Shown in pieces: positions 7,006 to 59,552 of a DNA stretch of 64,000 bases. The notes beneath the pieces were generated by a model. That model searched no databases, was not told the origin of the DNA, and saw only the letters and a list, made by a program, of their open reading frames with translations. Source of the stretch: Ruditapes philippinarum (taxonomy: Eukaryota); NCBI RefSeq assembly GCF_026571515.1, contig NW_026863104.1, forward strand, positions 1 through 64,000, in the 5' to 3' direction. Positions within the stretch are counted from its first letter, which is position 1, and each line of letters begins with the position of its first letter. Made by a program: the position numbers and the translations under genes.

Positions 7006-7239
7006 GAGCCGTGCCATGACAAAACCAACATAGTGCGTTTGCGACCAGCATGGGTCCAGACCAGCCTGCGCATCCGCGCACTCTTCAGGATCCATGCTGT
7101 TCGCTATCAGTTTCTCTACTTGTTATAGATTTTGGTAAGCGAACAGCATGGATCCTGATCAGACTGCGCGAATACGCAGGCTGGTCTGGATCCATGCTAG
7201 TCGCAAACGCACTATGTTGGTTTTGTCGTGACGCGGCTC
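7006..7239. mobile_element. Fold-back MITE, Sola-type (GAG..CTC termini, AWWT TSD)
   Basis: Inverted arms of ~100 bp (gagccgtgccatgacaaaaccaac...gttggttttgtcgtgacgcggctc) with ATAT duplicated on both sides. The same family occurs at 44449-44683 and as a half copy at 34145-34258. Confidence 0.85.
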
Positions 7240-18900: not shown

Positions 18901-19604
18901 TAGTGTCATGCGAGGCTATTTTATGATTGATAAATCATGAATGATATTTGAAATGACACATTTAAATTATTTGGTTGTTTATATCTTATGAGACCTATTA
19001 TATTTCATTATTTTATCTAATTTTTAACAGATTCTCCCTGTAGAATCACGTATGTTATTGTTATAAAATCTATTATTAGTAACAGATTGCTGATAAGACA
19101 TACAAGTAACTTGTGAATAGTTGAAAAGGCATGGCGGCTGATTAGATGTAAATGTATAAATAATTATTACAAAGTTATCTTTCATTAATCAGTTTCATAT
19201 TTTATATCATTAGAAAGGTCTGTATGCTCATAATTTACACATTCAAGAATAAGTTTTCAAAACCTTTTTGTTTTTTCTTGGTAAAGGGTTAAACTTTCTG
19301 AAAATCAAAGAAATCATCATTGAAACATACTTGAATAATTATCATATAATTCCTAATATATTTAAATAAATTCCTATTTAATATTTAACATACCGTTATC
19401 AGTTCCAAAGAGTATGTCACATGGTGTTTAGGAGTCAATCAAATAAATACGTTATGTTTAATTGCAAATCACAAGAGTTGAAATATTATGAAAGGAAACA
19501 TTTTAGGAGTGAGAGGAATGATGATTTTATTTGTTTCCATATGGACATATTGAATTTGAAAGCAACGGGACACAGCCTACGGTGCATCCATAAGCGTAAT
19601 ATGT

Positions 19605-22600
19605 TCAACCAAGACGTCCTGTTTGTGTACAGTATACTCTGAAGTCACATATATACATGCGCGTGTATGACAAGAGAATGCAAACAGCATATCGGAAATA
19701 GGAAGTACATGTTTGTCGTTTCTCCACAACGTCACTCTGTCTTTGTACCTCTACAATGGAATACACAAGTTTATCGTTAACGCAATTTTCTGTCAGTCGC
19801 AAATAAAAATAATTAACAGTCTAGACGTAGGTATGATGTTGTTGAATTTAGGTGCCTTATAAATTTCTAATGATTTTACTTATATATCACATTTAATGGC
19901 TCGAAGAAAATCTATATGATCTTGTGTTTAATGAAATAAGTAAACAATATAGACATAGGTATGATGTTGATAAATTTAGGTGCCTTATCAATTTCTAATG
20001 ATTTTACTTATAAATCACATTTAATGGCTCGAAGAAAATCTATATGATCTTGTGTTTAATGAAATAAGTAAACATTCTAGACATAGGTACATGTATGATG
20101 TTGATGAATTTAGGTGCCTTATCAATTTCTAATGATTTTACTTATAAATCACATTTAACTGCTCGAAGAAAATCTATAATTCGAGGATTCAAAGGTAAAA
20201 GGTAATAACTGCCATTTTCTAGATTTCGAGAAAAACGCAAAAAACATATAATTTAATACAACTTTATTTTCCGTAATATTTTTATAACAATTTTGATTCT
20301 CTCATATTTATTGACTACATTAGATCATATTTTGTTAAGTTTACCTTGCTTGGTGCTGATAAAACACTGTAATTATAGTTTGTTTTAAAGTTCTAAAATC
20401 AAAATAATATCATTTTACAGAAGTAAAAGGTAATAAATGTACTTAGATCCTGTCAAGACAATAAGGTTGGGAGGTAAAAGGTAATAACTGCACTTACGAC
20501 CTTTTACTTCAGAAGGTTTAGCAATAAAAGTTCCAGATAAATTGTTATAAAATGTAATAAGTGCAGTTATAGCCTTGTTCCTCTGAAAAGAATTTAGATG
20601 TTGCAGTTATTGTTACTGTTGCCAATTTATTTATTATGTCCTTACTTTGAAGAACCGTACGTAATGTAATTAACACACATGCACAATAATACTCGTACAC
20701 AAAACTGACAATTTTCATTCATAGAAATATGAAATATGTACCTGCTCAATATTTAGATTCTACAGAAATAAATTGATAACTAAAAAGTTATAAAATAAGT
20801 ACTAAAATCTTTGTTTACAAATTTTCATTTATTTTGAATGTTCTCTGGTATATAATCGAACTGAAGTCAAACAGACCCCAGACATCAGCAATTAAGGATA
20901 TTAGTGACCGATATCATAGTTAAGTAAATAAAGACTACTGTTGCATGTCACAAAATGCGAATGTTTGTCATTAATTATTCCATGACCTTCACTCATCTTC
21001 TTCAATCTCACTAACAGGAGGCATTGAAAGTTTGTCTTTTATAGATTTGATGCATGGCAATGACTCATAATATGATTCGTACTTGTCGGAATTGTCCCAG
21101 AGGCAACAAGTGACATCAAATCAGTCTTTTTGCAGCAGACATTGGAAGCTTCTCTGTATAAGCCTTGCGTGGAGCCTTAAAAGTTTTTTTTGCTTCTGCT
21201 CTTCTTCTGCATTAACCTTAATTCCTTGAACTCACTTACATCAAAACCATAGTTCACAAAGATACTGTATTCTTTGTCTTTACGAACTTGAATCAATTTT
21301 ATATTCAGCCAATTAACTGGTTCTCCATCAACATCGATTTTTATTGAGCCAAAGTTTTGTTCTTTGTACAACTTGTAATTTAGTATGTCAGTGTATTTTA
21401 TTGGAACGACAATATATAGTTGCTTCCGGCGTGCTAATGATATAACTGTTTCCCACTGAGATGGAACATTTACTTTTGTGAGACTTTTTGCATGCTCGAT
21501 AGATGCATGTATGGAATCACATTCCATTTCTGAATGGCCACTTTCTTGGACACAGTGAACTAAGCAACTTGCAACAAACTGATTGCGATTCTGTCCCCCA
21601 CATGTATCACTATAATTATAATGTCACTTCTTCAATACCAGATGTCTTACTTGCAACAGAAGTTACATACAAGTACACACAAGTTCCTACTTCGCACGAC
21701 CCTCGTTTCCCCTGTGTCTCATCCCACAGCTAACAAGTCCCCTTACCATTTCCCAGTTCATAGAATCACAAATTGTAACAACACAGTTTTCTTTTGTAAT
21801 AAAATTCACCATTTAAACTACATGGTGTTGTCAATATAGCCTGGAGATCAAATGCCGACACAGACAACTTTGGATCTTTCTTTGCGCGTTCTTTATAAGC
21901 TGATTTTTCCATCCTAGCATTGTTTTTTTTTTCTTTCTTGGTGTGCCTGATATTTTGCTTTTGTTGCCCTTTTAGAAAAACGTCTTTGTACACTCTTACC
22001 ATTTTGCCACCAACTGTGAAGAAAAACGAATTCGAAATAGTTCTTTGTTTTGTTCTCTGTTTAGATACCTTCTCTGGTTCTTTATTGGCAACATGGAAAC
22101 AAATAAATTGCCTTTGACTTTTGTAATCACCCATTGACCAGTATGTACTGAATATTTTCTGTCTTTCATCTTCGGTTATATTCTTGCTGCATTTAAATCT
22201 ACACTTAGAGCAATCCTTTCTCTTTAGGCTTCTTGCTTTCATTGATTTTCCTGTTTTACTTGTATACTCCTGTCCTTTTGATCGACGATCTTTTCTAATA
22301 TTGGCTTTCCACAAAAGTCTGCTGACTCTTCGTTTACGACTCAAACACTTACGTTTTGGGCTTATATATGATGCATCTTTGTGAGGCGTTACCTTCAGTG
22401 GAGACCCTTTTCGTTTTCGTTGCTTTGATGGCGTTCTTTTATTCTCTGGGGGTTCTGCGGTTTGCTGTGTTTCACAAGCTTGATCAGCAATCTCTTCCCT
22501 GTCATCTGTGGCATTTAAGTTTGTTGCTACAGTATCATAGTGATATTTGTCGTGTATTGCAACACGTGCCACTAAAATTGGTGGCAAATCTTACTCAGTG

Positions 22601-28600: not shown

Positions 28601-31213
28601 TAGCAACCATAAATATGTTTATGAAACCATGGTAACAACTATAGAGGTACCAAAATGCCAAGAAAAATGGATATCTACCTTTGGAGACATTTCCCTAAAT
28701 TGGCAGTTTATATATGGTAATGTATTTAAATGTACTAAAGATTCATACTTACAATGGTTTCAGACAAGAATTATTCACGGAATATTGGCAACAAACTCTC
28801 TTTTATTTCAAATGAAAATAGTTAATACTAAAATGTTCACTTTTTTGTGAATGTCAAGAAGAAACACTGATACATTTATTTTGGGAATGCAAAAAGATTC
28901 AGCCAATATTTCAGTTTCTGAAAGATATAATATAATAACATAATATTCATACCTTTTTTAATTGTAAATCTTTTATTCTTGGCTGTGAATTAAATGACTA
29001 TAGATATGATATTTTATTTTTAGAATTAAAAAGATATATATATTTATTATATACTTATAAATGAAATATTGAGAAATATTGATGAAATAAAATGCGTATT
29101 TTCATTTTCCGTATTTTCACTGTAAAAATTTATTTTTCACTGCAGTGAAACATATTTTCCGTATTTTCACTGGTGTCTTGTCGGACTACTTTCTTTTAAA
29201 TTCTACCAGTACACAAAATTTAAGGGAAAGTTTTTCAAATTTTATCACAAAAAAGAGAAAAAAGTACACAATAAACAGAAAATTCAAGTTTTTTCTATAA
29301 ATACATGATTTATTTTCATCTTGTGGCATGAAAATTACCATATTTCACTCGTGGCTACCGCCACTCATGAAATATTTATTTTCATACCACTCGATGAAAA
29401 TATATCATGTATTTATAGAAAAAACTTGAATATCCTCTATTTATTTAATTTTACCCATGAAATATGGTGCTACATCAGTGAAATATATTTCATATTTTTA
29501 AAAAAAATAAATATGAAATATGAATATGGAAATTGGCGGAGTCAAAACTCATATTTTTTAAGGGACTTCTTCCGCCATTTTGTTTTAAAATTTGAAAAAT
29601 ACAAAACAACTTTTTGTTGAATTTTGCTTTGAAAACTATCTAGAATGATAGAAAATGGTCTAACTAAGAAAATAAATCCGAACACCAATATCTTTAATTC
29701 AATTATTAACGCTGTACAGAAGTTTAAACAATTGTTTACGTGACGTCACAATGAAGCGCCAAATAATGCGTGCAAAACCAGACGCAATAATATATTACTG
29801 CGCGCTGTACAATTGCAGTTGCGTAGCAAGCAATAGGGTTCGTAACCATTTTTCTTTAATAATGAAATTAAATAAAAAAGTTATTTTTTTCTTTTTCGTG
29901 AAATATGGTATATATTTTCACTCAACATGATAAAATGCCACATATTTTTACTCGCCGTCCCGGCTCGTGAAAATATGTGGCATTTTATCATGTTTCGTGA
30001 AGTATATTCCATATTTCACTCAAACGAAAAAATATCCTCTCAATATTTGTCTGAGCGAAAATAATTGTTACCTACTTGTACTGGTTTTAAAAATAGCTTG
30101 AAGTTAGCTTGGAATTGTTATAAAATATAAATTTGACAACAGAAGAAATCAATAGATGGGCAATTGTTAAATCTTTTAATTCGTAACTGAAATAACTACA
30201 TCAAAATTTGGTTATTCCACTTATATAAAAGATAACAACTTCTATGCATCCTATATATTTCTCACACAATCGAACAAAGAAAATCCAATAGAATTTGCAA
30301 ATAAATCTTATTAAAAAAAACCAATAAGGACCTACCTTGTATGCTTCTGTTGTAATTTTTGGTCCAAAATGGACAGACACAAGGACAATAGCTGCAACAG
30401 CTGTCAAGGCAACAACACCAGCTTCCACTCCAACTATAATTATTTTGTTCGAACATCCCTTAGATACTTCATTGTGAACCTTGAAATATTTTCATAAAAA
30501 ATAATTTAAAATAAATTATACATTTATTTATAAATTAAATATAGTTGTATCCTAATAATACGATCAAAGGTTATGTGTTAAAATGCAAGGTAGCGGACGC
30601 ACAAACATTTCTGTTAAAAAGTGCCATCTGGTTTTTAAATAAATAACCGCAGTATTAGTATTAGTTTAAAATTGTTTAATGCCTGAACTTCATATCAAGG
30701 CATAAGTTAATTTGACATTAAAGTCTGAAGTCAAAGGTTGTGACCAAATATAAAGGATTATAACCTCTTGATTTGGTTTTTATTTTTACATTAAATTACC
30801 CAATCTTTAATAACTTTACACTTGTGTCACAATATTATTTTACGACAGCTTTTCCTTTTGAAGTAATATAAGTTTAACTTCAGTTTAAGAATCATAATCA
30901 ATGTTAACAAATCAGCACTTGAAATTTAAATTCAATTTAGAGTACATTTGTTATGTAGACAAAAGGTTAATGACGTTTTCACATCAGCACCTTACACAAC
31001 TTTACATAAACTTACTAAAATATTGCAGTTTTAATATAATAAAGGCAAAATCAAAATCATTTATAATGCATCCAAAATATTTAAGAACTAAGTATGGCTA
31101 GTGGTTACGAATATAAGTCTTCAGCATTTAATGATACTCAAAAGATAGGAATGTATGCTCATAAATGAACTAGATATCATTTGAAGTATTTTTCTGAAGA
31201 CGAATCTTACCAT
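19605..31213 (-). CDS. BRICHOS-domain type II membrane proprotein, paralog A (236 aa; 253 aa if the ATG at 31264 is used), with a C-terminal 4-Cys beta-hairpin-like peptide
   Basis: GT-AG exons 31213-31211 (ATG), 30479-30336, 26623-26501, 25171-25052, 24855-24720 and 19789-19605 join without stops: M|[48 protein letters not shown]|[41 protein letters not shown]|[40 protein letters not shown]|[45 protein letters not shown]|[68 protein letters not shown] hallmarks: VIYDY Asp, first Cys (SECI), second Cys followed by xxxxIYW. Confidence 0.85.
19821..20180. repeat. 128-bp tandem repeat (~2.8 units) in the last intron of BRICHOS-A
   Basis: Units start at 19821, 19949 and 20077. The paralogous intron (~38198-38300) has one unit. 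Confidence 0.85.
20181..24629 (-). mobile_element. Sola1-like DNA transposon, decayed, encoding an OTU-like domain and a transposase
   Basis: ~38-bp TIRs tcgaggattcaaaggtaaaaggtaataactgccatttt / aaaatggtagttattacctttaacctttgaaccctcga. Inserted in ATAT (right copy exact, left ATAAT); the empty site is at ~38292. Transposase motifs CSKCRFKC, FDLQAILTTP..FYYKRKLCCYNL and GHSEMECDSIHASIE in ORFs 21766-22587 and 21177-21527. Confidence 0.8.
25806..26377 (+). mobile_element. Helentron/HINE-type non-autonomous element with ~150-bp internal repeats, intronic
   Basis: 5' 'accaggttttcaacgaaaaccgggt' palindrome. Repeated 'aataactt..gctttggcctattgacaccaaac' units. 3' 'gaaaacgtggtttt' inverse plus the hairpin 'cgtcgcattgcggcg'. 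Confidence 0.7.
27125..29045 (+). mobile_element. Decayed 5'-truncated L1/Tx1-clade LINE (ORF2 RT), antisense within intron 2 of BRICHOS-A
   Basis: Translated fragments GFVKNRYIGENTRLLYDIM, IDFEKAFD, RGCRQGDPISPYMFILCVEIL, ITQFADDT and WFQTRIIHGILATN, with many stops and frameshifts. Absent from the paralogous intron (~40125). Confidence 0.85.
29066..30041. mobile_element. Two adjacent hairpin-bearing non-autonomous elements (Crypton-like, tentative)
   Basis: Both end in 'aatatcctct' (about 29438 and 30040). The second is the reverse complement of 17980-18337 and 36590-37140. Confidence 0.55.
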
Positions 31214-31290
31214 CTTAGCTCTTCCAACTTTGCAATCTGGGTAGTTCTTGTGATTTCTATCCATATCTAAAATTAAAAAAGTAAATTACA

Positions 31291-33363: not shown

Positions 33364-34447
33364 CTAAAATAGGGAGTAATAAAGAATCCCTAAAGAACGC
33401 ACAAGACGACACAATATGTTGCAGGCTAAAACAATGTAAGAGTGTTATACCTGGCCATTTAAAACATACAGCAATTGTTATTTGTATTTATGAGAATAAA
33501 TAACAATGCATGGGAATTCTAACCACCAGTAATAGTTGATGAATAGTTACAGTGCAAGCCATGGATGCTGTGTTAACTTACCTGTGATGTCTTGCAAGTA
33601 GGATATAGCCCAGTATAGCCCTCTGTCATTCCCGGAATTCATCTATATCTATGAGCAGTAGCAGCTGTGGGCTAACTTCAAACATTAATTTCAATTACAT
33701 TGTTTCCAATACAGAATTATATGAATTAGAAATAAAATATTTCAAATAAAACATTTCAAAACCTCAACATGAAAAATGTGTTCAGATTGAAATCATGAAT
33801 AATATTGAAATAGTTAAATTACCATGTAACATATGCACATACAACACGTACAGAAATGCTGATGGATAATTGATTTACAATAACACAAGATCACTGCGGT
33901 ATACCGTGCCCCGGATAATGCTCGATATTATGAGGACTTTCATCCAATTTCGCGACTTTGAACAGGGAACGAAGGTTAGTTCAGCGACGATATTTTCCAA
34001 ACTAATGGCTATTTCATTTATCTCAACGGGTTTTATATATCTAGAGGTATTTTTGTAGCTCTAAAAGACGTAGAAGTATAACAGGTATTTGTAAAATTGA
34101 TTAAACTACCACTAAACGATCCACTGCTCACTAGAAAATACTGACGAGAGTTGGTAAGCGAACAGCATGGATCCTGATCAGACTGCGCGGATGCGATGGC
34201 TGGTCTGGATCCATGCTGGTCGCGAACGCACTTTGTTGGTTTTGTCATGACGCGGCTCATATTTCCAATCACCTCGTGTCAGAAAACCTCAGTGGAGTCC
34301 CTTAAAATTTAACATATCACTGTTTTAATTTTTATTTAATAGTAAATCAATTAAACTGAATAAGACTGTTTGTGTTCATGCAACAATTAAGAAAATGTGA
34401 TAATTAAAGTTTTGATACTAGCTAGTCTCGGTCTTTATTTTATATAG

Positions 34448-35837: not shown

Positions 35838-37963
35838 TCTTTTATTTATAAAAATCTGCAAATATTAAATAAATATTTATTTTGAATCACATTCAGGGTT
35901 ATTTTCTTTTTATTTCTCTCGGCGTATCTATATAATTATATTAACACAATTTTGGTCAAACTATTTAAATTTGCTTAAATTGTCTTAGCTTTGTTATTTA
36001 TTTATCGATTGGAAGAATTTTGACTAAAAAATCGGGATGTGAAATAACTCAAATATGACCTTGACATTTAATTGATATTGAATGTCAATGTCAAATCATC
36101 TAAATTTGCTCGTCATAACTTTATTATTTATTTACCGATTGGATTTAGTTTTGGACAAAATAACACTTATGACAAAACCGATATGTTAATTTTTTCTAAT
36201 ATAGCATTGGCCTTATGTTACTCGGGATGTTAAATAACTCTAATATGACCTTGACCTTTAATTGACCTTGAATGTCAAGGTCAAATCATTTAAATTTGCT
36301 TAGATTGTTATAACTTTGTTATTTATTTACAGATTTGATTTTTACTTCAACAAAAGAACACATATGGCAAACCAAGATGTTGATTTAATTCAAATATGGC
36401 ATTGGCCTTAAAGGGTATAAATCTATGTCTTATGAAATATTTCTATAAAATTTATCAACAGTAAAATAATATTGGTTCCTTTATTATATGGTGGATTCCC
36501 GAAAAAGTTGTAACATAGAATGTCTCTTTTATTTAACACTCATGAATATTGTACGTAAACAGAATGAAATGTTCCAGAATTAAATATTAAGTGGATATTT
36601 TTTCGTTTGAGTGAAATATGGGGTATATTTTCACTCAACATGATAAAATGCCACATATTTTCACGAGCCGGGACGGGAGAATATTTCAAGAAAAACGAAA
36701 AAATAACCTTTTTATTTAATTTCATTATCAAAGAAAAATGGTTACGAACCACCTTGCTTGCTGCAATTGTACAGCGCGCAGTGATATATAATTTATAGAT
36801 GCGTCTTGTTTTGCACGCGATATTTGGCGCTACATTGTGACGTCACGTAACAACTCTTTAAACGTCTGTACAACGTTAGTGACCGAATTAAAGATATTGG
36901 TGTTCGGATTTATTTTCTTAGTTAGACCATTTTCTATCATTCTAGATAGTTTTCAAAACAAAATTCAACAAAAGTTGTTTTGTATTTATCAGATTTTTCA
37001 AACAAAATGGCGAAAGAAGACCCTTAAAATAAATATGAGTTTTGACTCCGCCCACTTTCATATTTATATTTCATATTTATTTTTAAAAAATATGAAATAT
37101 ATTTGACAGATATAGCACCATATTTCATGGGTAAAATCAAAAAAATATTCCATATTGAATTATTAGGGAATGTGATAGAATATTTTTACATTTTAACCTA
37201 ACAATTCATACAATCTCATACTAAAATATCGCTTAAGAAATACACAAAAAGACTGGTAGTGAAATGAAATGTAAAATGAAAACAAATAAGTTAAACGAAT
37301 CTTTAGCTAAGAGCACGTTTAGACTCAAATCAAGGTCAAAGTATAAAATACAGACGCAGATCGTTGAAATAATCTTTATTCTAATTATTTATTGGATATA
37401 CCACGTTGAAAAAGAAAGGAAGTTAGTTTTACATATCAAAGCAATAAGAAACAGAATAAATCGGATATACATTTACATGAAAATATGAAAAAAACTTTTA
37501 CCATATGTAACTTTGCAAAACATTAAAATGTCTTCCATACATAAAACGGTCAAATCGTATATCAAGCTAGAGATTATTAAAGTTAAAAAAGAAAAAAACT
37601 GCAAACAGACATCCGTGACACCTAAAAGTACGTAATCTATATGATCATAAGGTAAGAAATTTAAAAAAAAAATATTGTCAAAACATATTAACCCTCAAAA
37701 TGCTAAATAATGCAACATTGTGATTTTACAAATGGAAACATGTGTTTTACCTGAAAATATGTAAATTCTAGGAAAAGAAATCATCATTGAAACATACTTG
37801 AATAATAATCATACTCATATAATTCCTAATATGTTTAAATAAACACCTTTTTATATTTAACATACCGTTGTAATTTTCAAAGAGTATGTTACATGGTGTT
37901 TAGGAGTCAATCAAGTAAATACGTTATGTTGAATTGCAAATCACAAGAGTTGTTATTGAAATA

Positions 37964-40900
37964 TTATGTAATATTTTCAACCAAGACGTGTCCTGTACAG
38001 TATACTCTGACGTAACATATATACATGCGCGTGTTTGACAAGTGAATGCAAACAGCATATCGGTAAGAGATAGTACATATAATTAGTGTGCGTCGTTTCT
38101 CCACAACGTCACTCTGTCTTTGTACCTCTACAATGGAATACCCAAGTTTATCGTTAACACAATGTTCTGTCAGTGGCAAAATGAAATAAGAAACAATCTA
38201 GACAAAGGTATGATGTTGATAAATTTAGGTGCCTTAACAATTTCTAATGATTTTACTTATACGATCACATTTAACTGCTCGAAGAAAATCTATATGATCG
38301 TTTAATTCGTTTGATTTAACAATGGGATACATAAATATAACTTTATGTAACATTTTGAAAGTGGTTTTACAACAATTACTTTTCATCCAATATATTTTCG
38401 ATTCCTTGCACATTCCTTCAACCTTTTCAGAAATCAGATATTGCGGAACCTCAATATCTGTCCTTACCCACTCTTTCTTGTCAGTCTCGTTATCCTTTTT
38501 TTGGTGAATGTCAACCTGTGAGATGAAACAAGGTCATTTATTTTCAATTTTATGAGTCATTACATTGTAGTTAAACGATTTTGAATATAATTAAGGATAC
38601 AGATATTTCGCTTATGCAATTATTTATACAGGGATATGTCGGACAATTTTTACAATGTTTTTGTCGGAACATAAAATCTCCTGGCCAGTTAATATACAGA
38701 TATATAGTATACCTCTCCATTTGAATACTCGTTAGGGTCAAGACTTGGAGCTTCTGTCTCATTCATATGCTGTGCAATACATTCGCTTTGAGTATTACTC
38801 TCCCTATCAACAAATCGTGTAACAACTATGCCCTGAAATAATTGCATAAAAAAGCATTTTGTCCCAACTTGTATACGACGGTATAGATTCTAATAACAAT
38901 TATATACATGATGGAAGTCAGATAACTGTTTCCCATTATATCCCATGGACCATTTAATCAACCGTAAGTAATTAAGTAAGTAAGTAAGTAAGTAAAGGAT
39001 GATTTATACCTACTCAGCAATATCTGCTTAAATGATCATAAAATACATTTTTATATAACGTGTTTGAAGAAGGAAGTCTTCTTGTTTATGTGCAGTTCAT
39101 CCACATGGTCAACTTACATGTTCGTAATCATAGATGACCTCTGCCATATTAGAAATCCGCACGTCAACCTCTGTTTTGGTTACATTAGTCTCCTCCTCAA
39201 ATATGTCCCCTTCGTCAGATTTGAATGTTTGATGCACAACCTATGTAATATTAAATAAAACATGCATTCAAAATGACAGAATTATATATGACAAGCGACC
39301 CTATAATTCAACAGAGTCATGAAAAAAAAACATTTTTATATATAATTTGATCATAATGCTCAGGCCCCGTGTTCACAAAGAAAAGATCAGGATCAGGATC
39401 AGATGATCCTGATTTTATTTTCATTGTTTTATACAACTAAAATTGATGGTATTATGCTAGAAGTAAATGGTACATATTCGGAATATAAATAATTGCTTAC
39501 TTGCAAAGAAACCAACCTATTTTGGGGAAAAATCAACAAATAACAAAACAAATACAAAAATAATCGGATCAAAATAAGGATCAAGATCAGGATCAAGATC
39601 AAAATTTGGATCAACTGTAAAATGCCCATATCTTGTAAAAATAAGAATAAATTCATTCTAAAATTTCATAAGCATGCTATCTCAAGTCCAGTTTTATTAA
39701 GTTAATACTGAATATTTCATCTATGAGGATAAATAATAGAGAATATTTGAGTTTTTAAATTTGATCCTAATCTTGATCCTGATCCTTAAATCTTTGTGAA
39801 CACGGGGCCAGGATATGATCAGGCAGTCAATTGGTGAATATATTTCTTTAGGGACCACTGGTTGGTGTATCAAGAAGTACATAAAGGACATTACTGTGGA
39901 AAACAACAATGAAGTAAGTAAGTAATAAACTACTATAACATTTACTAAATTTCATTGAAATAAAATAGAACAACATATTTCGTCCAAGGTTTTTTTATGT
40001 TTTACTAATCCTCTTATGTTTCACTTTATTTCTGTTATAAACAATAAAAAACAAAACAACAAAACAAATAAAAGCAAAAACAACAAAAAACAAACAAACA
40101 ATTAAAAAAAACGAAAAAAACACACACAATCGAACAAGAAGAAAATCCAATGAAATTTGCAAATAAAAACCCAATAAGGCCTACCTTGTATGCTTCTGTT
40201 GTAATTTTTGGTCCAAAATGGACAGACATAAGAACAATAGCTGCAACAGCTGTCACAGCAACAACACCAGCTTCCATTCCAACAATTATTCTTTTATTCG
40301 AACGTTCCTTAGATTCTTTAATGTAAACCTTCGAATATGTCATAAAAATTATTTTATATAAATTATAATTATTTATTTATTTATATATTAAATGTAGTTG
40401 TTCCCTAATAATAGGATCAATGGTTTTGTGTTAAAATGCAAGGTAGAGGACGCACAAACATTTCTGTCTAAAAAAAACTAGTGATGTTATATGAAATACA
40501 TACATTATATGAAATATTTTTTCGTCATTAAATTTTACTTATCATACAAAAATTTTAGAAAATTCTATGAAGGAAATGTTTCGATATTTTTTTAATAATT
40601 TACAGGATTCATGTTTATATTGCTCATTTTTTGTTCAGTTAAAAAGCTTGAAAAACTCATATTTTTAAGAAATATATTCAAATTATCATTTGTTTCATAC
40701 AGAATCAAAAAAACAAGTTATCTTTGTATGAATTTGTGCTTGTTTTGTGTATTTAACTGTCTTTTACATTTTTTATATTTTAATACACAGTGTGACTATT
40801 TTGACAGTTCTGATATATACGGTTACCATGGAAACTGCCATTTCACAAAAAATCCAAATTGTCAACATTTTTTTTTTATTCGCCATTAAATTTTACTTAT

Positions 40901-43900
40901 TATACAAAAATTTTTAAAAAATCTATGAAAGGATTAAAGTTTCCTTAAACTGTAGAAAATGTCTTTAAGCTTAACGAATATTTCATAGCAAGTTTTATAA
41001 ATTGTACACACTCTTTATGCTCTATTTCTGTGGGTATAAAAAATCAGTGCAAGATCAGGAAGTAAGGAAGTAAAGAGTTGCTTTATTTGATTTATTTCTG
41101 CCGTTAAAGAAATGTCATCAATGCAAACATTTAAATCATCAGTTACCTTTTAAGTCATCAGTATATTTGGAGTATTTTTCAACTTGGATATTAAGTGATT
41201 TATTGGAGCTTGGATTATTTTTTAAAATAGTTTAAATTATTCTTGTGGATTTTATTGTGGGAATTTATTCTAAAGTGTTCTTGGATTTTACTTGGATTTA
41301 AGTGTGCTATTCAAAAAGGATCATTCCAGGATCAGACTAGACATTTGAAATTTACATTTTTATTTGGATTTCAGGTATTTGTACACATAATTTGTTGTTT
41401 TAATTTTCTTTGATAATTTTTCTGTAATAAATTTGTTATTGTTACAAGTTTGTTGCTGGCTTTTCTTTCTCGTTACGCCTGGCTCGTAACAATATATACG
41501 GTTACCATGGAAACTGCCATTTCACAAAAAATCCAAATTGTCAACATTTTTTTTATTCGCCATTAAATTTTACTTATCATACAAAAAATTTAAAAAAATC
41601 TATGAAAGAATTAAAGTTTCCTTAAATTGTAGAAAATGTCTTTAAGCTTAACGAATATTTCATAGCAAGTTTTATAAATTGTACACACTCTTTATGCTCT
41701 ATTTCTGTGGGTATAAAAAATCAGTGCAAGATCAGATAGTAAGGAAGTAAAGAGTTGCTTTATTTGATTTTTTTTCTGCCGTTAAAGAAATTTCATCAAT
41801 ACAAACATACGTAACTGCGATTAATATATTCTTCCATTCTTACCCAATACGTGTGTTTATTTATTTAATATTTGCAAATGTTTTGATATATAGATTAAGT
41901 GTTCCTAAAACAAAACAATCAAGGCAATATTTATCTGTTTCTTAATAGCAATCAGCAGTTGGACTGATTACTGTAATAATGAAGTAATTTCAAACAAAAT
42001 AATTACTATCAATAAAGCGTTTTAAGACATGTTTTGTCTGTGCCAAATTCTTTTTTACTGGCAATGTCATGAAAAAAGATATATTTGACAAGATCATAAA
42101 AAGTAACTTAAATGCTTTTTCTGGCACATGAACTGTGATAATATCAGTCTTTCCAGGTTCCATTCCTAAAGCTTGCTTCATTATAAAACGTTCAGAAGAC
42201 AATACCTAAGAGTGCTGTGATTTTTTTGCTATGCATATTGAAGGCTGCTGGCGTATCACAAGCTTAAATAGCTGCCCAAAGTAATAAACTCCTAATTATT
42301 TTTTTTATATATCCCACGTAGTAGTTATCCTTATTATAGAACAAATTAAAATGGCACCAAGACGCTTCCGTAAGTATGTCATTCTATAACATCTTTTTCT
42401 GAAAAAGGTATAGGTGAAATTATGCCCATCCAAGGGTATATAGAGAGTGAACAGGTGAAAGCCAAAGAATTTTACATTTTACCATAATTCCTTTCAATTT
42501 TATAATATTCATACCATGAACGATGAAGAACGCATATGGCATAAGGGAATTCTATAAATATTTACATGTAACACTCAATTTATAATAAGAGTGGTGCAGT
42601 CTTGTCATATTTTGGGGAGATTTACATTCTATTCTAAACATTTGCGGTCAATCCCTATTGAAACAGTCATTTTTTTTAAATACATAATCAATTCAGCTTA
42701 AATTCACAAGGAAAACATCTCATTAATATGTCTTCTATTTGAGTTAAACTAATCTTGACATACATAATTTATTTCCTATCACAGAAGCACTTTTTACTTT
42801 ATTTTTCCAGCACAAGAAATAAAGATTTAAATTCGAATACTTAATATGGTTTAAAATCAATCAATTTGTAAATGCCTTAACTTCATACCAAGGCATCAGT
42901 TAATTTGACATTAAAGTCTGAAGTCAAAGGTTGTGAACAAATGTAAAGCATTATGGCATCTTGATTTGGTCTTTTTTGTACATTGAATTACCCAATCCTT
43001 AATAACTTTGTGATTAATGCTTCCGAGGGATCACTTTGTTTCCAGATTTTTATACTTCACAACAGCAGGTGTCAAGTGCTGTGTGGCAGCTGTAAAAGGT
43101 TGCCGCGTACTTCACTTCAGTGTTGTTATATTTTTCTGGTCCTTCGGGATCATTGATGCCAGCACTATTAAATGTTGAGAATTGAGTACCGCTCAAGCCG
43201 GTGCTAGGGGGCGTGAGGGATGTTGCAATTATTCATTATCCCTCATGTACAGACTCAATCAAACCGAGTCTGCAATTCTTATGTAATTTTGTTGTGAGTA
43301 ATGCTTCCGAGGGATCACTTTGTTTCATGATTTTATACGTCACATCAGCAGGTGTCAAGTGATGTGTGGCAGCTGTAAAAGGTTGCCCCGTACTTCACTT
43401 CAGTGTTGTTATATTTTTCTGGTCCTTCGGGATCATTGATGCCAGCACTATCAAATGTTGAGAATTGAGTACCGCTCAAGCCGGTGCTGCTAGGGGGCGT
43501 GAGGGATGTTGCACTTATTCATTATCCCTCATGTACAGACTCAATCAAACCGAGTCTGCAATTCTTATTATATGTAATTTTGTTGTGATTAATGCTTCCG
43601 AGGGATCACTTTGTTTCCAGATTTTTACACTTGTGTCAAACTATTTTTTAAGACAGCTTTTCCTTTTGTAGTTTTATAAGTTTAACTTCAGTTTAAGAAT
43701 CATAAACTAATCAATGATAACAAATCAGCACTTGAAATTTAAATTCAAATCAGATTAAAAGTGTTATGTAGACAAAAGGTTTATGACTTTTTCAGATCAG
43801 CACCTTACAAAACTTTACATAAACTTACTAAAATATTGCAGTTTTAATACAATTAAAGAAATGCGTCTTAAAAATTTTGTATTCAAGTATGGATAGTGGT

Positions 43901-44003
43901 TACAAAAAATAAACTTTCAGCATTTAAAGATACTCAAAAAATAGAAATGTATGCTCATACTAGACATCATTTGAAGTATTTTTCTGAAGAAAAATATTAC
44001 CAT
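37964..44003 (-). CDS. BRICHOS-domain type II membrane proprotein, paralog B (242 aa), with a divergent C-terminal 4-Cys peptide
   Basis: Exons 44003-44001 (ATG), 40328-40185, 39240-39118, 38832-38713, 38515-38380 and 38166-37964 have the same phases as paralog A, the same lengths except the last exon, and no stops. C-terminus ...[47 protein letters not shown]. Confidence 0.85.
39364..39808. mobile_element. PIF/Harbinger-type MITE, intronic, copy B only
   Basis: TIR gccccgtgttcacaaag / ctttgtgaacacggggc with a 3-bp TSD CAG. Empty site 'gctcaggatacg' at ~26740. Internal (gatcar)n repeats. Confidence 0.85.
40815..41808. repeat. ~315-bp direct repeats flanking an LTR-3'-end-like fragment
   Basis: 'atatatacggttaccatggaaactgcc...' at ~40814 and ~41492. 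The spacer has AATAAA and ends '...cctggctcgtaaca'. Confidence 0.6.
43010..43628. repeat. Inserted head-to-tail array (~2.15 x ~285-290 bp) of a sequence partly shared with the Kolobok MITE interior
   Basis: 'taatgcttccgagggatcactttgtttc' at ~43016, 43299 and 43590. It shares 'catgtacagactcaatcaaaccgagtctgcaatt' with 12846-12879. Absent at ~30817 in copy A. Confidence 0.75.
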
Positions 44004-44448
44004 CTTAGCTCTTCCAACTTTGCAATTTGGGTAGTTCTTGTGATTTCTATGATATCTATATCTAAAATACAAATCAAAGTATATTACATTATATTTCATA
44101 ACACTACATTATATAACATTACATTATATTACATTACATCACATTAACCAATTCTACATTCAGCTGTTTAAACCACAATGTATATAATATATGATAAACA
44201 ACATCAACAAGGAAAGGCGGCGTTTGACATGAACGTAACCCCCATATGACGCAGCAACAAGAACCAGCGGCAAGGAGCCCAGGTGGACCCCAAACAAAAA
44301 CCTGGCTCTTAGCCCCACCATGTTCCTATAAACGAGACAGTGTAAATAAAATGAATCCCCGTAAAAGGTTTACGTGTCAGTCAGCACTCTTTTGAATCAG
44401 ACCATACCAAGGTTTATCAAATACATGTAGATAGAAAAACATGTATTT

Positions 44449-44683
44449 GAGCCGTGTCATGACAAAACCAACATAATGGGTTTGCGACCAGCATGGATCC
44501 AGACCAGCCTGCGCATCCGCGCAGTCTGATCAGGATCCATGCTGTTCGCTATCAGTTTCTCTACTTGTAATAGAGTTGGTAAGCGAACAGCATGGATCCT
44601 GATCAGACTGCGCGGATGCGCAGGCTGGTCTGGATCCATGCTGGTCGCAAACCCATTATGTTGGTTTTGTCGTGACGCGGCTC
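44449..44683. mobile_element. Fold-back Sola-type MITE, copy B only
   Basis: Near-perfect ~100-bp inverted arms, GAG..CTC termini and an ATTT TSD. Absent from the paralogous site at ~31815. Confidence 0.85.
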
Positions 44684-44995
44684 ATTTGATGTCAATACAG
44701 CATACCTTGTTTGTTATTGAGGGCTTTTTTCATTACACTTTATATTTAGATCATATACTGCAGGGGACGGCAAAATCAATTGTTCATATTATCCAGGTTG
44801 TGCCACAGCAGTCAAGTGAAAATTTTCCCCAGTTTACTTTATAGATATCATAGAGACATGCAAAAATAAATTTAAGATAAAACAGAAATGTAAGTCAAAA
44901 TAAGATTTATCAATCTATTTAATTAGATTTTAGTACTGATTTTTGATTCTTTACTTCAGGTATATGAATACTCTTTTCTTCAGGTATATGAATAC

Positions 44996-45394: not shown

Positions 45395-47469
45395 ATTATA
45401 TTATATGTAAATGATGTAAGTTGCAGTATATTAGGCTATTCTGGTTTCAAGATAAATAACCAGTATTATAAATATACAAGTTCCAGAGACCGTAAATTAC
45501 GTTTGTCCGCTTTTATTATCAAGTAAAATTAGATCGAATTAGGAGCATTATGGGTAGAAAGAAGTAAGCAGCTACTTGTCCTGCAAAATGAGTCCCTCTG
45601 ATTTTTCCCCATTTCTACTGCAACTAAAGCTGAAAAGTTGATATACTTTACGTGAATATCCTACATTTTACAAGGGAGATTTTTGGCAAACGTATACAAT
45701 TAAACCCCTTTTACATGTTGCATGTATTTACATATACTAAGGCAATAATTTAGCCACATTTTTTTCTGCATTTCTTTCCAATTTAACAGTCTAATATGAC
45801 ATCATTAGCATATATCAAAACAAAATCATTTAAGTGATATCAGTCATTTTAAGTGCAAGCAAGGGCACCGCGTGTGGTGTTTAAATGCTTGTCTGTTAAA
45901 AATTAGTTAAAAGTTAAAATGGGGCATAACTCCATGAACTCCAAGAATATTGCTTTCAGAGTTATGCCCCATGTATGACATCTGCATCTTGTAATGATGA
46001 GCAAATATTACAAGTTTCATGTTGCTACCTTCGTCAATGTTTCACTAATGGGCTACAATCCAAAGATGCAGCAGAGATCATATTAGCTTGACTTTTTCTT
46101 CACAACAGATGAGCAAATGAGCTAAAAATAACACTTTTATAATATACTTTGTCGAATTTAACTATATATTCAACCATAAACAAAATTGGCATAAAAGTCC
46201 TTTTGAATTACACCCTAGTATAATAAAGCTTTTTTTCTGTCAAGTTGTATTTGTTAATGTGATACATGCATTAAATATAAAAAGACATACACTGGTATTT
46301 CCCTATAATAAACCTCCATATACGTAATCTGAATGTTTAACACCCTATAATTGCATTCAAACATAATTTGTTGAAAAATAAATTCAACTGTTGAATCACA
46401 TTTTTACTCACTACAAGTACAATTGAAACAAATGTACAATAATAGATGGTCTGATTCAATGATGATGAATCTGTACAAAGGTCTCCCTTTTCACAAAGTC
46501 GTAGAAACAATCTTATCTAAATTTTCCTTTCTGATTAAATACCGTTTTTTATTTACAACCATTATGAACTACTTATGTTTTAAAAATCAACACAATGATT
46601 TACAGAATCCTTTTTTCTTCAAAATAATATGTACCTCGACTCACCTGTATTGCTTAGCTATTTCAATAATAATTCCCAACCTTTAAATTCTACATATGGT
46701 CAAACTCTAAAATAGAGAGAAATAACGAATCCCTAAAGAACGCACAAAACGACACAATTGAATATGTTGCAGGCTAAAACAATGTAAGAGTGTTATACCT
46801 GGCCATTTAAAACATACAGCAATTGTTATTTGTATTTATGAGAAATAATAACATTGTATAGGAATAGTTGGTGCAAGCCATGGATGCTGTATTAACTTAC
46901 CTGTGATGTCTTGCAAGCAGGATATAGCTCAGTATACATGGTATAGCCCGCTATATTTCCTGGAATTTATCAATATGTATGAGCTGTAGCAGCTGTGGGC
47001 TAACTTCAAACATAAATTTTAATTACATTGTTTCTATTACAAAATTACATGCCTGACATCCAACTTACAATACAATTTATTAGAAATGAAATATTTCAAA
47101 TAAAACATTTCAAAACCTCAACATGGAAATATGTTCAGACTGAAACCATAAATAATATTGAAATCGTTAAATAACCATGTAACATATTCATGTATAACAC
47201 ATACAGAAATGCTGATGGATAATTGATCTATAGTAACACAAGATAATATTTTTGTTAAAAAAGGACAAATGTCTTGGGATAAAAGAAAATCTGTTTGTAA
47301 AACAAGCAGCACTCCATTACTCTCAGTTCTTGATAGTGGAATAACAATAGGTCTTGCAAAATACCTTAAAGTAGTTAAAATTGGAACACAATTATGTCAA
47401 AATCAATGGCAGTAGCTTTAAATCCCCTTGCCTGGAAGTTAATGTGAACGGAAAACGGAAAAAAATCCT

Positions 47470-52653: not shown

Positions 52654-55600
52654 TGTCGCGAAGAACGCGATTTTATGATATATACCTCAGCATAGTGCAT
52701 TGGCCTTGACTATTGTATCTGTCGCGCAGACGAGATCCGTCGGGCTGACGAATGTTGCCGCCGGGATAATTAATGACTTTCTTAATTTTCATGATTTGTA
52801 TGTTTTTCCATGCTTTTCTGACTATATATAAGTGAGGACGAATTTATATTTTGGCAGTGTATTCTAGTGGAATAATATGGACATTACTTTAAAGTTAAAG
52901 TGAAATACTGAAATGTTTCAAATGTTAATGTTTCTAAAATAAAGGAAAGTAAAATTGAATTTGATTTTCGTTTTATTTTATGTGGTATAAAATCTCTCCC
53001 ACATAAATTGGCGCCGGAACCCGGGAATTGAAATCGGGAAAAAGGAAGTGCTTACACGTGTGCAATTAAAAATGGCAAATATTTCATATCTAAAAGGTGT
53101 TAGGACTCGGTTCTATAATATCCTGAGTAAAGAAGTAGAAATAGCAGATGTAATTCTAAATGAAAACTTTGATTTCGCAGACAAAGGTGTTTTGATTGAA
53201 AAAGCGGATAAGTGCATAGAACGGATGAAAATATATCGTGAAAAGTTGGAAATTCAGACGATTATATTAGCTAGTGCCCTTGGAGATACCGATGAGGAAA
53301 TACTGACTAGCTTTCTCGAAGAGGATAGTCTACTCACGGACAGATTTACGGATCTAAGCATTGACCTTGCCAATCTGAAAGACAAACTAAAGGCCTTGAA
53401 AGTCACTGAAGACGAAGAAACAAACAGCGGAGAAAGGGTTCGTGCAAAAGAGTTAATGGATTTACAACACGAAATGCAAAATATTGTCGTAAATCAAATA
53501 AAGCAAAATCAGATATCTTTGAAATGAGTGAAAAAAGGGAAGAGATGAACTCGCCAGTTAAGCTTCAAAAAATCGACCTCATTTCCTACAATGGTGATAA
53601 GCTTAAGTGGACAGAGTTTTGGGATGCCTTCAAATGTACGGTACATAAAAATACAAAATTATCAAACATAGAGAAGTTTATCTACTTGAAAATTAAAGTG
53701 TACGGTGAAGCAAAGCGTGCTATTTCAGGTATTTCACTCACCGATGGAAACTATAGTGTTGCTATTAAAACACTAAAGGAACGTTTTGAAAACGTGCAGG
53801 AAATAATTGACCTACATTACAACAAAATTATCAATTTATTTCCGCCAAATACTAAAACCGAGAGTTTACGAGCATTCTTTGATCAAATACAAAAACATCT
53901 GTGATGCCTAGAAGTCCAGGATATATTTGTAGCTATGATACATTCAAAAAAACCACAAGAAATACTCCTTCAGTTAGAGATGCAAAAAGGAAACACTAAA
54001 AAATGGACAGTGTTTCTACTTCACGATGCTCTGGAGACGTATGTAATTGCACGTGAAAGGTCTGAACAAAAGTCTCAGACATCAAAAGACTGTAAGTGCT
54101 AATATTGTGACGGTGATCAGCGGAAACATCAGAAGAAAACGGTTGAGTGTGCATACAAATGAGAGTCTTCAGCATTTGTTGAAGAGTGTTAATATGGCTG
54201 ATACTATACCTACAAGTGAAGAATATTCTAGTGTAGATTTACTCATAGGAAATGATTATTATTTGGATATCATACTCTTACAGAAGATGGAAGTACAGCC
54301 AGGATTGTATCTTCTTGCCTCAAAACTTGGCTGGATTCTAACGGGTCGTACAAACGATGATAACGATGCAAACAGTACAAGTGAATCAAACATGCTTGTA
54401 TTAACTTACGGTACAGAAATAAGAAAAACAAGTGTTTTTACAAGTGTTGACTCCACTGTCCCAACAAAACCAGATTTAGATGACTTCTGGAATCTTGAAA
54501 CTATTGGAATCACAGATAACGCAAAGGAGTATAATGATGAATTAGCTAAACAAAACTTTAACGAAACCTTGACATATCAAAATAAAATGTACCAAGTAAC
54601 ATGGCCTTGGAAAGAAAAAAGCCCAGATCTACCACAAAATCGAGGACTAGCGATGTCAAGACTGAAATCAAATGTGGCAAGACTGAAAAACAAGCCTGAT
54701 GTGCTGAACAAATATAATGAAGTAATCCAAGATCAGTTGAATAAGGGCGTGATTGAAAAGGTCGATAAGAACGTTCAAGACGGACCCATGCATTACATTC
54801 CACACCACGCAGTTGTTACACCACAGAAATCAACAACAAAATTACGTATAGTATATGACGCATCTGCTAAAACGAAACTTGGAAATAAAAGCCTCAATGA
54901 ATGTCTTTATCGTGGCCCTGTGATGCTTCATGATCTTGTTGGATTACTGATGCGATTCAGATTACACCAAGTTGCAGTGGTAGCAGATATCGAAAAGGCA
55001 TTCCTTCAAATCGGATTGCAGCCAAGCGAACGAGACGTTACAAGGTTTCTTTGGATAAAGGATTTTAACAAAGCTTACACAGGAGAGGGAAATATTCAGG
55101 AGTATCGTTTTTGTCGAGTTCCATTCGGCATTATCTCAAGTCCTTTTTTGTTGGGTGCAACTATTGAGTACCATCTAGACTCTTACCATAACAGCATTGC
55201 CGACAAAGTTAAAGATGACATATACGTAGATAATGTCATTACGGGTACCGACAGTTACGAAGAAGCATTTGAACTGTATAGAGAAAGCAAAAGGATGTTT
55301 TAAGAGGCGTCAATGAACTTACGAGAATGGACATCAAATAGCGCAAAGTTGAATGAATTGATACCTGAAGAGGACAAAACAGATAGTTCCATTACCAAAG
55401 TACTGGGGCTTACATGGGATACAATGGTGGACACTCTTTCACTAAATGTGTCATTTGCTTCCATTGATTCACAAAGTCCAACAAAAAGAATTATATTGAA
55501 AAACATCGCTTCCGTGTTTGATCCTTTGGGACTCCTCTGTCCTGTTTTGTTGAAAGGAAAAGTTTTATTACAGTCCATATGGAAAGAAAGGTTGGATTTG

Positions 55601-59435: not shown

Positions 59436-59552
59436 TAAATTGGCGCCGGAACCCGGGAATTGAAATCGGGCAAAAGGAAGTGCTTACACGTGTGCAATTA
59501 AAAATGGCAAATATTTCATATCTAAAAGGTGTTAGGACTCGGTTCTATAATA
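59436..59552 (+). mobile_element. Start of a second internal unit (PBS plus gag N-terminus) directly after the 3' LTR, truncated
   Basis: Nearly identical to 53004-53120 (taaattggcgccggaacccggg...MANISYLKGVRTRFYN); homology then stops. Confidence 0.9.

What the first reader, a model, noticed from the sequence alone, without database searches (positions are those of the whole stretch)
37967..38092. Paralog B peptide diverged on a fixed Cys scaffold
Seen: [42 protein letters not shown] keeps all four Cys and their spacing. It differs from A at 7 of 27 core positions, has a 3-residue longer N-terminus, and has a frameshifted tail that loses the terminal Gly. By comparison exon 4 is 40/40 identical, exon 3 has 3/41 differences and the spacer 2/24. 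Exon 5 (7/45) and exon 2 (10/48) also vary. Inference: a variable mature peptide on a more conserved prodomain is typical of defence-peptide families under diversifying selection, but two sequences give little statistical power.
Basis: partly seen in the sequence, partly recalled or inferred. Interest (0 to 1): 0.7.

Follow-up and report, generated by a model that had tools for sequence, protein, structure and literature searches.

The report
Truncated clam BRICHOS peptide gene copy
The four-cysteine peptide is the front half of an undescribed eight-cysteine clam peptide that is made with its own folding helper; this gene copy looks cut short and is probably decaying, although the cut leaves a hairpin shape like that of known worm antibiotics.

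Summary
The sequence observation holds: B's peptide, its four Cys, 7/27 core differences and the frameshifted tail are real. The frame was wrong. A and B are tandem copies of a type II BRICHOS precursor (RefSeq names for Ruditapes philippinarum). An expressed paralog C and three Mercenaria loci carry an eight-Cys peptide. A still holds the rest of that peptide behind an in-frame TGA. B shares those letters out of frame and has deleted the tail. Both have Arg at the third Cys. So the 'fixed scaffold' is a remnant. Diversifying selection on B is not shown: 8/81 nt against 8.1% in introns (p=0.54), 8 N/0 S (p=0.10). B's peptide core had zero depth in 3 of 3 RNA runs, two of which were rich in C-type transcripts. 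AlphaFold gives C a three-stranded sheet whose first hairpin is what A and B keep. Best reading: a relaxed, decaying duplicate (0.55). Rival: a new two-disulfide hairpin antimicrobial made by truncation (0.27). Not seen earlier in this scan.

The parts
37967..38092 (-). Predicted mature peptide of copy B (42 aa; 41 if cut after KRR): Cys 1, 2, 4, 5 of the 8-Cys family scaffold, Arg in place of Cys 3, frameshifted hydrophobic tail, net +3
37964..38127 (-). B last coding exon: 12-aa spacer ending in EKR (convertase site), peptide, TAA. The TAA is formed at the junction of a deletion of about 100 nt that removed the family tail and A's AATAAA
   Evidence: acceptor supported by the P0001/P0004 protein joins and by 244 C-type junction reads
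38380..38515 (-). B exon 5, second half of BRICHOS (second conserved Cys). RefSeq XP_060561382.1 reads on into the intron here and omits the peptide exon
38713..38832 (-). B exon 4, BRICHOS core (first conserved Cys); 1/120 nt different from A
39118..39240 (-). B exon 3, linker and BRICHOS start (conserved Asp)
39361..39808 (.). MITE-like repeated insertion of about 448 bp in B intron 2; absent from A and from B-like contigs in runs X1 and X16
   Evidence: joint 39360-39809
40185..40328 (-). B exon 2, transmembrane anchor (type II)
   Evidence: helix 34-63 in the model of C
42116..42181 (-). B's family-type first coding exon (22 aa, 86% identical to C); followed by a weak GC donor (GCATTT); deleted from A
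46901..46939 (-). Upstream exon candidate of B with an in-frame ATG and a strong GTAAGT donor (counterpart in A 33582-33629); use not shown
19608..19715 (-). Predicted mature peptide of copy A (36 aa, N-terminal Gln, C-terminal Gly, 4 Cys, Arg at Cys 3)
19605..19607 (-). In-frame TGA at peptide codon 37, inside predicted strand 3; the same letters are kept out of frame in B
19526..19604 (-). Relic tail of A: 25 open codons with 3 Cys, 16/25 identical to C, ending at the homologous stop and an AATAAA
19605..30479 (-). Copy A coding exons 30479-30336, 26623-26501, 25171-25052, 24855-24720, 19750-19605 (RefSeq XP_060561387.1)
30615..30670 (.). Junction in A where about 2.4 kb present in B (40476-42862), including the family's first coding exon, is missing

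Best explanation
B is the more degenerate of two tandem duplicates of a venerid-clam BRICHOS precursor gene. SHOWN: TM exon, BRICHOS domain above Pfam's cut-off, EKR site and last-exon peptide. The intact family member has a 58-62-aa, 8-Cys peptide. INFERRED from BRICHOS biology: a type II membrane precursor whose BRICHOS domain chaperones the beta-prone C-terminal peptide until a proprotein convertase releases it. The most likely job of the intact peptide is cationic, membrane-active host defence (about 0.55 for the family). SHOWN: before A and B split, their ancestor had a TGA at peptide codon 37 and Arg at Cys 3, leaving four Cys. B then gained a 9-nt insertion, a frameshift and a tail deletion, and has a weak GC donor on exon 1; A lost that exon. 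INFERRED: B's peptide now drifts at about the intron rate and is made at a very low level or not at all, while C-type copies carry the function. The four shared Cys reflect recent common descent more than a selected scaffold.
For: BRICHOS 33.6 bits (A), 29.9 (B), 30.5 (C), cut-off 25; Asp and both Cys invariant in 8/8 sequences including B's model. Eight Cys invariant in 6/6 intact peptides: 2 C-type, 4 Mercenaria. tblastn of C aligns through A's TGA to the homologous stop; relic tail 16/25 identical to C. Core vs introns p=0.54; Cys retention by chance about 0.43. Depth 0 on bin 37973-38063 in 3 of 3 RNA runs at 88% likeness, while 543 reads in X23 and a contig in X1 leave B's sequence at 38092 into a C-type peptide. 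B-like exon-2 contig at depth 4.7 against about 7,000 for C-type in X1 (the tool calls contig depth a poor measure of expression). Protein collection: clusters of A and B have 1 member each (RefSeq), C's has 6, four of them Logan and one ENA. Lesions: GC donor in B, lost exon in A, lost AATAAA in B, N-terminal Gln and C-terminal Gly both lost in B.
Against: B's ORF is still open end to end (250 aa). Exons 3-4 are far more conserved between A and B than introns: 3/192 N sites, p=8e-5 at the intron rate and p=0.045 at half that rate. So the chaperone was under purifying selection, or gene conversion, after the truncation. All 8 core changes are non-synonymous, and core pN exceeds luminal-prodomain pN (p=0.0025). 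B-like exon-2 sequence appears in X1 (a contig that matches exactly over the exon, 4 differences) and among 26 reads at 40284 in X23 (the cleanest with 2 other differences), so a B-like locus is probably transcribed a little. Only 3 RNA runs of unknown tissue were laid, with about 4% and 6% of the two raw runs read; X1 is only guessed to be RNA; X21 showed almost no family transcript at all. The one Cys lost in the retained half is the one whose predicted partner was cut off (strand registers).
Confidence: 0.55

Rival explanations
1. Neofunctionalisation by truncation. The TGA removed strand 3 and Cys 6-8, the orphaned Cys 3 was replaced by Arg, and the result is a functional two-disulfide beta-hairpin antimicrobial peptide (Gln start and amidation Gly in A) that has since diversified between A and B under positive selection. 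It would be a clam counterpart, reached independently, of alvinellacin/capitellacin-type peptides.
For: AlphaFold model of the C peptide, mean pLDDT 84.5, strands 6-14, 20-29, 35-44 (the same three strands in the full-length model). Register sums put Cys12 opposite Cys23 and Cys19 near Cys44, so the four retained Cys could be two native pairs (3-29, 12-23); this is inferred from DSSP limits, as no coordinates were returned. 8 N / 0 S in the core; core pN above prodomain pN, p=0.012. BRICHOS exons conserved. A ends in Gly-stop. Net charge +3 in both.
Against: No RNA coverage of B's core in 3 of 3 runs; A-type reads, about 95% alike over most of the core, should also have been laid there (inference). 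Selection tests not significant against neutral sites (p=0.10, 0.11, 0.54). Hitting the orphan Cys by chance is 1 in 5. Cys spacing is asymmetric (8 vs 5 residues between pairs). Charge is below the +4 to +6 of arenicins and alvinellacin (PMC6780910, Table 4 passage). B has lost the Gln and Gly and is hydrophobic (GRAVY 0.62).
Confidence: 0.27
2. A and B are not two stable paralogs but divergent haplotypes or presence/absence variants, possibly joined in one short scaffold; B's peptide form is then a rare or private allele.
For: The RefSeq contig is only 88,487 bp. B-like contigs in X1 and X16 lack B's intron-2 insertion, and DNA depth over the peptide core in X16 is 19.5 against 97 and 188 in the adjacent bins (holes in contigs prove nothing).
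Against: About 8% intronic divergence with many indels and different mobile insertions in each copy. X16 holds both an A-type and a B-type 3' flank at similar depth, 107 and 89, which fits paralogs, though also a heterozygote.
Confidence: 0.1
3. A's TGA is recoded (selenocysteine or readthrough), giving a 62-aa peptide with 7 Cys plus Sec, and only B is truncated.
For: A's tail is open for 25 codons, keeps 3 Cys and ends at the homologous stop with AATAAA. 7 Cys plus one recoded codon would restore an even number.
Against: The TGA aligns to a non-Cys, variable column. A crude pattern scan of 700 nt downstream gave 6 matches, none folding with a SECIS-type GA quartet, best -10.8 kcal/mol. An open 25-codon relic is expected after a recent stop.
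Confidence: 0.03
4. The family's peptide is not antimicrobial but a secreted signalling or matrix peptide, like the mature parts of Bri2, tenomodulin or OAF, so the defence framing is wrong whatever the state of B.
For: All BRICHOS families carry beta-prone C-terminal peptides (PMC2751770, PMC9714404, first thirds read), and Bri23 has no antimicrobial activity (PMC6780910, passage). One Mercenaria member is only +2 and Tyr-rich.
Against: Tandem expansion, rapid peptide change between and within species, +9 to +11 charge in two Mercenaria forms, and C-type transcripts from two runs that differ from each other or from P0004 at 2 of the first 9 residues (loose ends decoded by hand).
Confidence: 0.05

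Closest known systems
Polychaete BRICHOS-AMP precursors (arenicin, alvinellacin, capitellacin, nicomicin, HfBRI peptides)
   Same: Hydrophobic anchor, linker, BRICHOS, dibasic site, Cys-containing beta-rich C-terminal peptide. Five HfBRI precursors are also transmembrane-type (PMC10745061, section 2.1). Preproalvinellacin also has 5 introns, the peptide in the last exon, and tandem paralogs (PMC5431198, passages).
   Different: Found in a bivalve, whereas reviews call the family polychaete-only (PMC9756803, PMC6780910, passages). The intact peptide is 58-62 aa with 8 Cys and a predicted three-stranded sheet. B's Cys spacing (8-10-5) is asymmetric and its charge lower. No activity data. Orthology was not tested.
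AmBRI-44a (Arenicola marina defensin-like BRICHOS peptide, four disulfides)
   Same: BRICHOS precursor with a four-disulfide mature peptide, as in paralog C
   Different: Described as defensin-like in a review (PMC11767717, passage). The clam peptide model has no helix. I did not see the original paper or the sequence, so Cys spacing was not compared.
Vertebrate BRICHOS proteins (ITM2B/Bri2, BRICD5, gastrokines, tenomodulin/chondromodulin, OAF; Pfam PF04089)
   Same: Type II anchor, conserved Asp and two Cys, convertase-released beta-prone C-terminal peptide
   Different: Peptide length and Cys pattern; the clam peptide is hypervariable and the gene tandemly duplicated
Uncharacterised venerid proteins LOC132759064 (R. 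philippinarum, paralog C) and Mercenaria LOC123556619, LOC123556624, LOC123535433
   Same: Same precursor, 55-77% identity for the closer ones; they share the 8-Cys pattern
   Different: They keep all eight Cys and strand 3; A and B do not

Membership tests
BRICHOS superfamily (PF04089) | BRICHOS domain above Pfam's gathering score | tested here: met
   RefSeq model of B 29.9 bits, A 33.6, cut-off 25; those exons match the window 100%
BRICHOS superfamily (PF04089) | Invariant Asp and two Cys of the domain (PMC2751770) | tested here: met
   D108, C129, C187 invariant in 8/8 including B's model and in 21/21 wider homologues
BRICHOS superfamily (PF04089) | Four regions: hydrophobic, linker, BRICHOS, C-terminal beta-prone region | tested here: met
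   Model of paralog C: helix 34-63, BRICHOS strands, C-terminal strands 214-253; the same exons are in B
BRICHOS-AMPs (polychaete type) | Dibasic convertase site before the peptide | tested here: met
   EKR(R) in B, EKR in A and C; Arg invariant in 21/21. Cleavage itself not shown.
BRICHOS-AMPs (polychaete type) | Cationic mature peptide | tested here: inconclusive
   B +3 (+2 if cut after KRR), A +3, C +4, Mercenaria +2 to +11
BRICHOS-AMPs (polychaete type) | Disulfide-closed beta-hairpin | tested here: inconclusive
   B itself was not folded. It keeps the residues of strands 1-2 of the C model; pairing inferred from registers only.
BRICHOS-AMPs (polychaete type) | Antimicrobial, membrane-permeabilising activity | not testable with these tools
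   No assay possible
BRICHOS-AMPs (polychaete type) | Common descent with arenicin/alvinellacin precursors | not tested
   None of the 20 profile hits looked up by cluster (of 39 hits) carried such a name; no tree was built
Venerid 8-Cys BRICHOS peptides (defined here from C and Mercenaria) | Eight Cys at 3, 12, 19, 23, 29, 44, 48, 57 | tested here: not met
   B has 4; A has 4 before its TGA and 3 behind it. B derives from this family but is not an intact member.
CS-alpha-beta / invertebrate defensins | Helix tethered to a beta-sheet; Pfam defensin match | tested here: inconclusive
   The C model has no helix; no Pfam hit for the A or B peptide; the fold searches cannot exclude a family
Selenoproteins | UGA at a Cys-aligned position plus a SECIS in the 3' UTR | tested here: not met
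   UGA column is non-Cys in 6/6 intact peptides; the crude scan found no SECIS-like fold

The most novel reading that the evidence does not exclude
Venerid clams have an undescribed family of BRICHOS-chaperoned, 8-Cys, three-stranded antimicrobial peptides. In the Manila clam a single nonsense change plus loss of the orphaned cysteine turned one member into a working two-disulfide beta-hairpin antibiotic (A, then B). That would be a snapshot of how a new AMP scaffold arises, converging on the polychaete hairpin class that is said to be restricted to worms.
Probability: 0.2. Interest if true: 0.72.

Novelty: new variant of a known kind. Interest (0 to 1): 0.42.

Why it matters
The precursor design is well known. 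What appears new is the bivalve 8-Cys peptide family and the stepwise truncation visible in one locus. Reviews state that BRICHOS-AMPs occur only in polychaetes (PMC9756803, PMC6780910). My seven literature searches listed no paper devoted to a clam BRICHOS peptide; the nearest is a table line naming an up-regulated 'BRICHOS domain-containing protein' in mussel digestive gland (PMC4203926). If the intact C peptide is antimicrobial, the class extends to molluscs and gives aquaculture immunology an expressed, polymorphic candidate. If A and B work, they show a scaffold being born by truncation. If B is a decaying copy, as I think more likely, the finding as worded is ordinary duplicate decay and C is the better object of study.

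Tried and rejected
Whole genome: none is held, so other copies could not be counted. Pfam on single exons gave only a sub-threshold BRICHOS hit, in 1 of 10 pieces. Run search: no RNA holder listed, which is no evidence either way; the small shares of 0.06-0.11 were not used, since B's intron carries a repeated element. I laid 4 of the 24 listed runs, on B only, so the state of A's TGA in other animals was not seen. A search for short forms or alleles of the last exon found no candidate (25-128 aa only). Peptide profile against PDB sequences: 1 chance row, E=2. Foldseek: no match at E<=0.001. VIA-align wide: best Z 4.0, rmsd 2.7, 43 aligned, 0 chains at Z>=5; this shows neither a new fold nor a different one. 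ESM Atlas: no usable hit. Earlier scan findings: none relevant. The 'AmBRI' search returned unrelated papers and the loose five-term search was dominated by non-BRICHOS papers. Rejected: the 24-aa spacer model; a four-Cys family scaffold; B-specific acceleration; Sec recoding as likely. My own first guess of exon 1 (33629/46939) is unproven; the family-type first exon lies at 42181-42116. No DNA of paralog C was available, so no dN/dS was computed for intact copies. Model coordinates were not returned, so disulfides were not measured. No supplementary files were read; supplements of bivalve transcriptome or annelid BRICHOS papers, and subscription papers such as the AmBRI-44a article, could already list these peptides.

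Full report
Observation. The minus strand at 38092..37967 encodes the quoted 42-aa peptide. A self-comparison of the window shows a tandem duplication, A at about 16.5-33.9 kb and B at about 35.1-47.2 kb. All introns between exons 2 and 6 are GT-AG. One detail is wrong. The last exon starts at 38127 (19750 in A), not 38166. RefSeq's model of A and all six paralog-C proteins join there, and 244 C-type reads in run X23 show the 38380-38127 joint. The spacer is 12 aa and identical in A and B.

Identity. Exon 5 of A retrieved 3 proteins among 11 candidates. Two are RefSeq Ruditapes philippinarum models that match the window exactly: XP_060561387.1 (A) and XP_060561382.1 (B). RefSeq's B model runs into intron 5 and has no peptide. 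Both carry a BRICHOS domain above Pfam's cut-off. The third protein belongs to paralog C (LOC132759064, on another contig), whose cluster has 6 members, five from Logan or ENA. A profile search gave 39 hits. Of the 20 looked up, named ones came from Mercenaria, Dreissena, Mya, Tegillarca, Sinanodonta, Lingula and axolotl.

The scaffold is eight cysteines. C's peptide is 62 aa with Cys at 3, 12, 19, 23, 29, 44, 48 and 57. These eight are the only invariant columns in 6 of 6 intact peptides aligned, two C-type and four from Mercenaria. tblastn of C runs straight through A's stop. A has a TGA at codon 37, then 25 open codons with three Cys, 16 of 25 identical to C, ending at the homologous stop beside an AATAAA. 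B keeps the same letters around that TGA in another frame and has lost about 100 nt downstream; the deletion junction makes its TAA. Both copies have CGC (Arg) at Cys19. The TGA and the Arg therefore predate the A/B split (inference). B keeps the family's first coding exon (42181-42116), followed by a weak GC donor; A lacks it through a deletion of about 2.4 kb. Other in-frame upstream exons exist in both, so neither lesion alone proves inactivation. B's joined ORF is open, 250 aa.

Structure. AlphaFold2 on the six-peptide alignment gave mean pLDDT 84.5 and three strands, 6-14, 20-29 and 35-44, with no helix. The full-length model (21 sequences, pLDDT 71.8) has the TM helix, the BRICHOS sheet and the same three strands. 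The TGA falls in strand 3. From strand limits alone, Cys12 faces Cys23 and Cys19 lies near Cys44, which suggests pairs 3-29, 12-23, 19-44 and 48-57. If so, A and B keep exactly two native disulfides and have replaced the one orphan. Fold searches found nothing clear.

Selection. Core: 8 of 81 nt differ, all non-synonymous; Fisher p=0.10 against synonymous sites. Against 256 of 3146 aligned intron sites (11 blocks) p=0.54, or 0.11 for N sites alone. Core pN is higher than prodomain pN (p=0.012) and than luminal pN (p=0.0025), but not higher than exon 2 (p=0.44). Exons 3-4 are clearly constrained (3/192 N sites, p=8e-5), while whole-prodomain pN/pS is 0.79 on 20 and 7 changes. Several core changes sit in adjacent codons, so independent events may be fewer than eight. 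Polarised on C, two changes are B's, two are A's and three are unresolved. Relaxed and positive selection cannot be told apart. Among intact members the peptide is consistently more variable than the prodomain in amino acids: C vs an ENA variant 4/62 vs 1/208 (p=0.011); Mercenaria X1 vs X2 16/59 vs 16/208 (p=0.0002; RefSeq lists them as isoforms of one locus); C vs Mercenaria 37/59 vs 76/206 and 34/59 vs 77/206. These tests lack dS.

Expression. I laid 4 of 24 listed runs on 37700-40400 at 88% likeness: two raw RNA runs (about 4% and 6% read), one contig set guessed to be RNA, and one large contig set of unrecorded kind that I take as DNA. Bin 37973-38063, B's peptide core, had depth 0 in all three RNA runs. 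In X23, 543 reads leave B's sequence at 38092; decoded by hand their consensus begins QACTSYFRIA, a C-type start. X1's contig there begins QACTSIFR, as in C. X21 had almost only repeat-derived reads and depth of about 1-3 over exons and introns alike, so it says little. Against my reading, X1 has a depth-4.7 contig matching exactly B's exon 2 with 4 differences, and X23 has 26 reads at 40284, the cleanest with 2 other differences. A B-like locus is probably transcribed at a low level. Tissues are unknown.

Mechanism. From BRICHOS literature (PMC2751770 and PMC9714404, first thirds read; PMC6265681, PMC10745061 section 2.1 and PMC6780910, passages), the precursor is a type II membrane protein whose BRICHOS domain holds the aggregation-prone C-terminal peptide until a convertase cuts at the dibasic site. 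For C, I infer a four-disulfide, cationic (+4; Mercenaria +2 to +11) peptide, most likely a defence peptide. A would release a 36-aa form with Gln and Gly ends, suited to pyroglutamate and amide formation (general knowledge). B would release a 41-42-aa, more hydrophobic form (GRAVY 0.62-0.75) without those ends. I put 0.55 on B being a relaxed, little-expressed duplicate, 0.27 on a functional truncated hairpin, 0.10 on haplotype or assembly effects, 0.05 on a non-defence family role and 0.03 on recoding of A's TGA.

Comparison with what is known. It works like polychaete BRICHOS-AMP precursors and is a member of the BRICHOS superfamily by every feature tested. Membership of the BRICHOS-AMPs is open, because activity and descent were not tested. 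B fails the 8-Cys test of its own parent family. Reviews call BRICHOS-AMPs polychaete-only (PMC9756803, PMC6780910, passages). AmBRI-44a, with four disulfides, is known to me only from a review line (PMC11767717). I also read passages of PMC13001179 and PMC4203926. Seven searches listed no paper devoted to clam BRICHOS peptides; most listed papers I saw only as title and abstract start, and the library lacks most subscription journals.

Verdict. Interest 0.42. The most novel reading, a hairpin antibiotic born by truncation of an 8-Cys clam peptide, has probability about 0.2 and would deserve about 0.72.

Noticed in passing
window 19526-19607 (-): Relic 25-codon, 3-Cys tail behind A's in-frame TGA, 16/25 identical to paralog C; RefSeq ends A at the TGA
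   Followed up: yes
P0003-P0008 (paralog C cluster) and runs X23, X1: Intact 8-Cys paralog with abundant transcripts and peptide-concentrated variation (4/62 vs 1/208 between two members; a further start variant in X23); probably the better AMP candidate
   Followed up: partly
window 39361-39808: MITE-like element with inverted ends in B intron 2, very high copy in X16 contigs, absent from B-like contigs in two runs, so probably polymorphic
   Followed up: partly
window 20178-24630: About 4.4-kb insertion in A's last intron with two minus-strand ORFs (23798-22812, 329 aa; 22590-21769, 274 aa) and no Pfam hit; probably a mobile element
   Followed up: partly
window about 52750-59550 (+): BEL/Pao-type LTR retrotransposon: RVT_1 at 54047-55300, Peptidase_A17 at 55304-55969 with a stop between them, and 95%-identical direct repeats at 52753-53120 and 59189-59552
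   Followed up: no
window 31208-31264 and 43998-44048 (-): RefSeq's first exon for A has a counterpart in B that lacks the upstream ATG; the real 5' ends of A and B are unresolved
   Followed up: partly
window 30336-30479 and 40185-40328 (-): Both A and B carry a Glu within the start of the transmembrane segment (GVEAG/GMEAG) where C and Mercenaria have uncharged residues
   Followed up: no
P0013, P0015, P0016, P0019, P0021: Related BRICHOS precursors (P0013, P0015, P0016 Dreissena; P0019 Mya; P0021 not looked up) carry quite different C-terminal peptides (Tyr/Trp-rich, or with Thr/Ser mucin-like tails), so cargo swapping is wide in heterodont bivalves
   Followed up: no
window 6995-7249, 34147-34262, 44439-44694: A short inverted-repeat element family present in three places
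   Followed up: no
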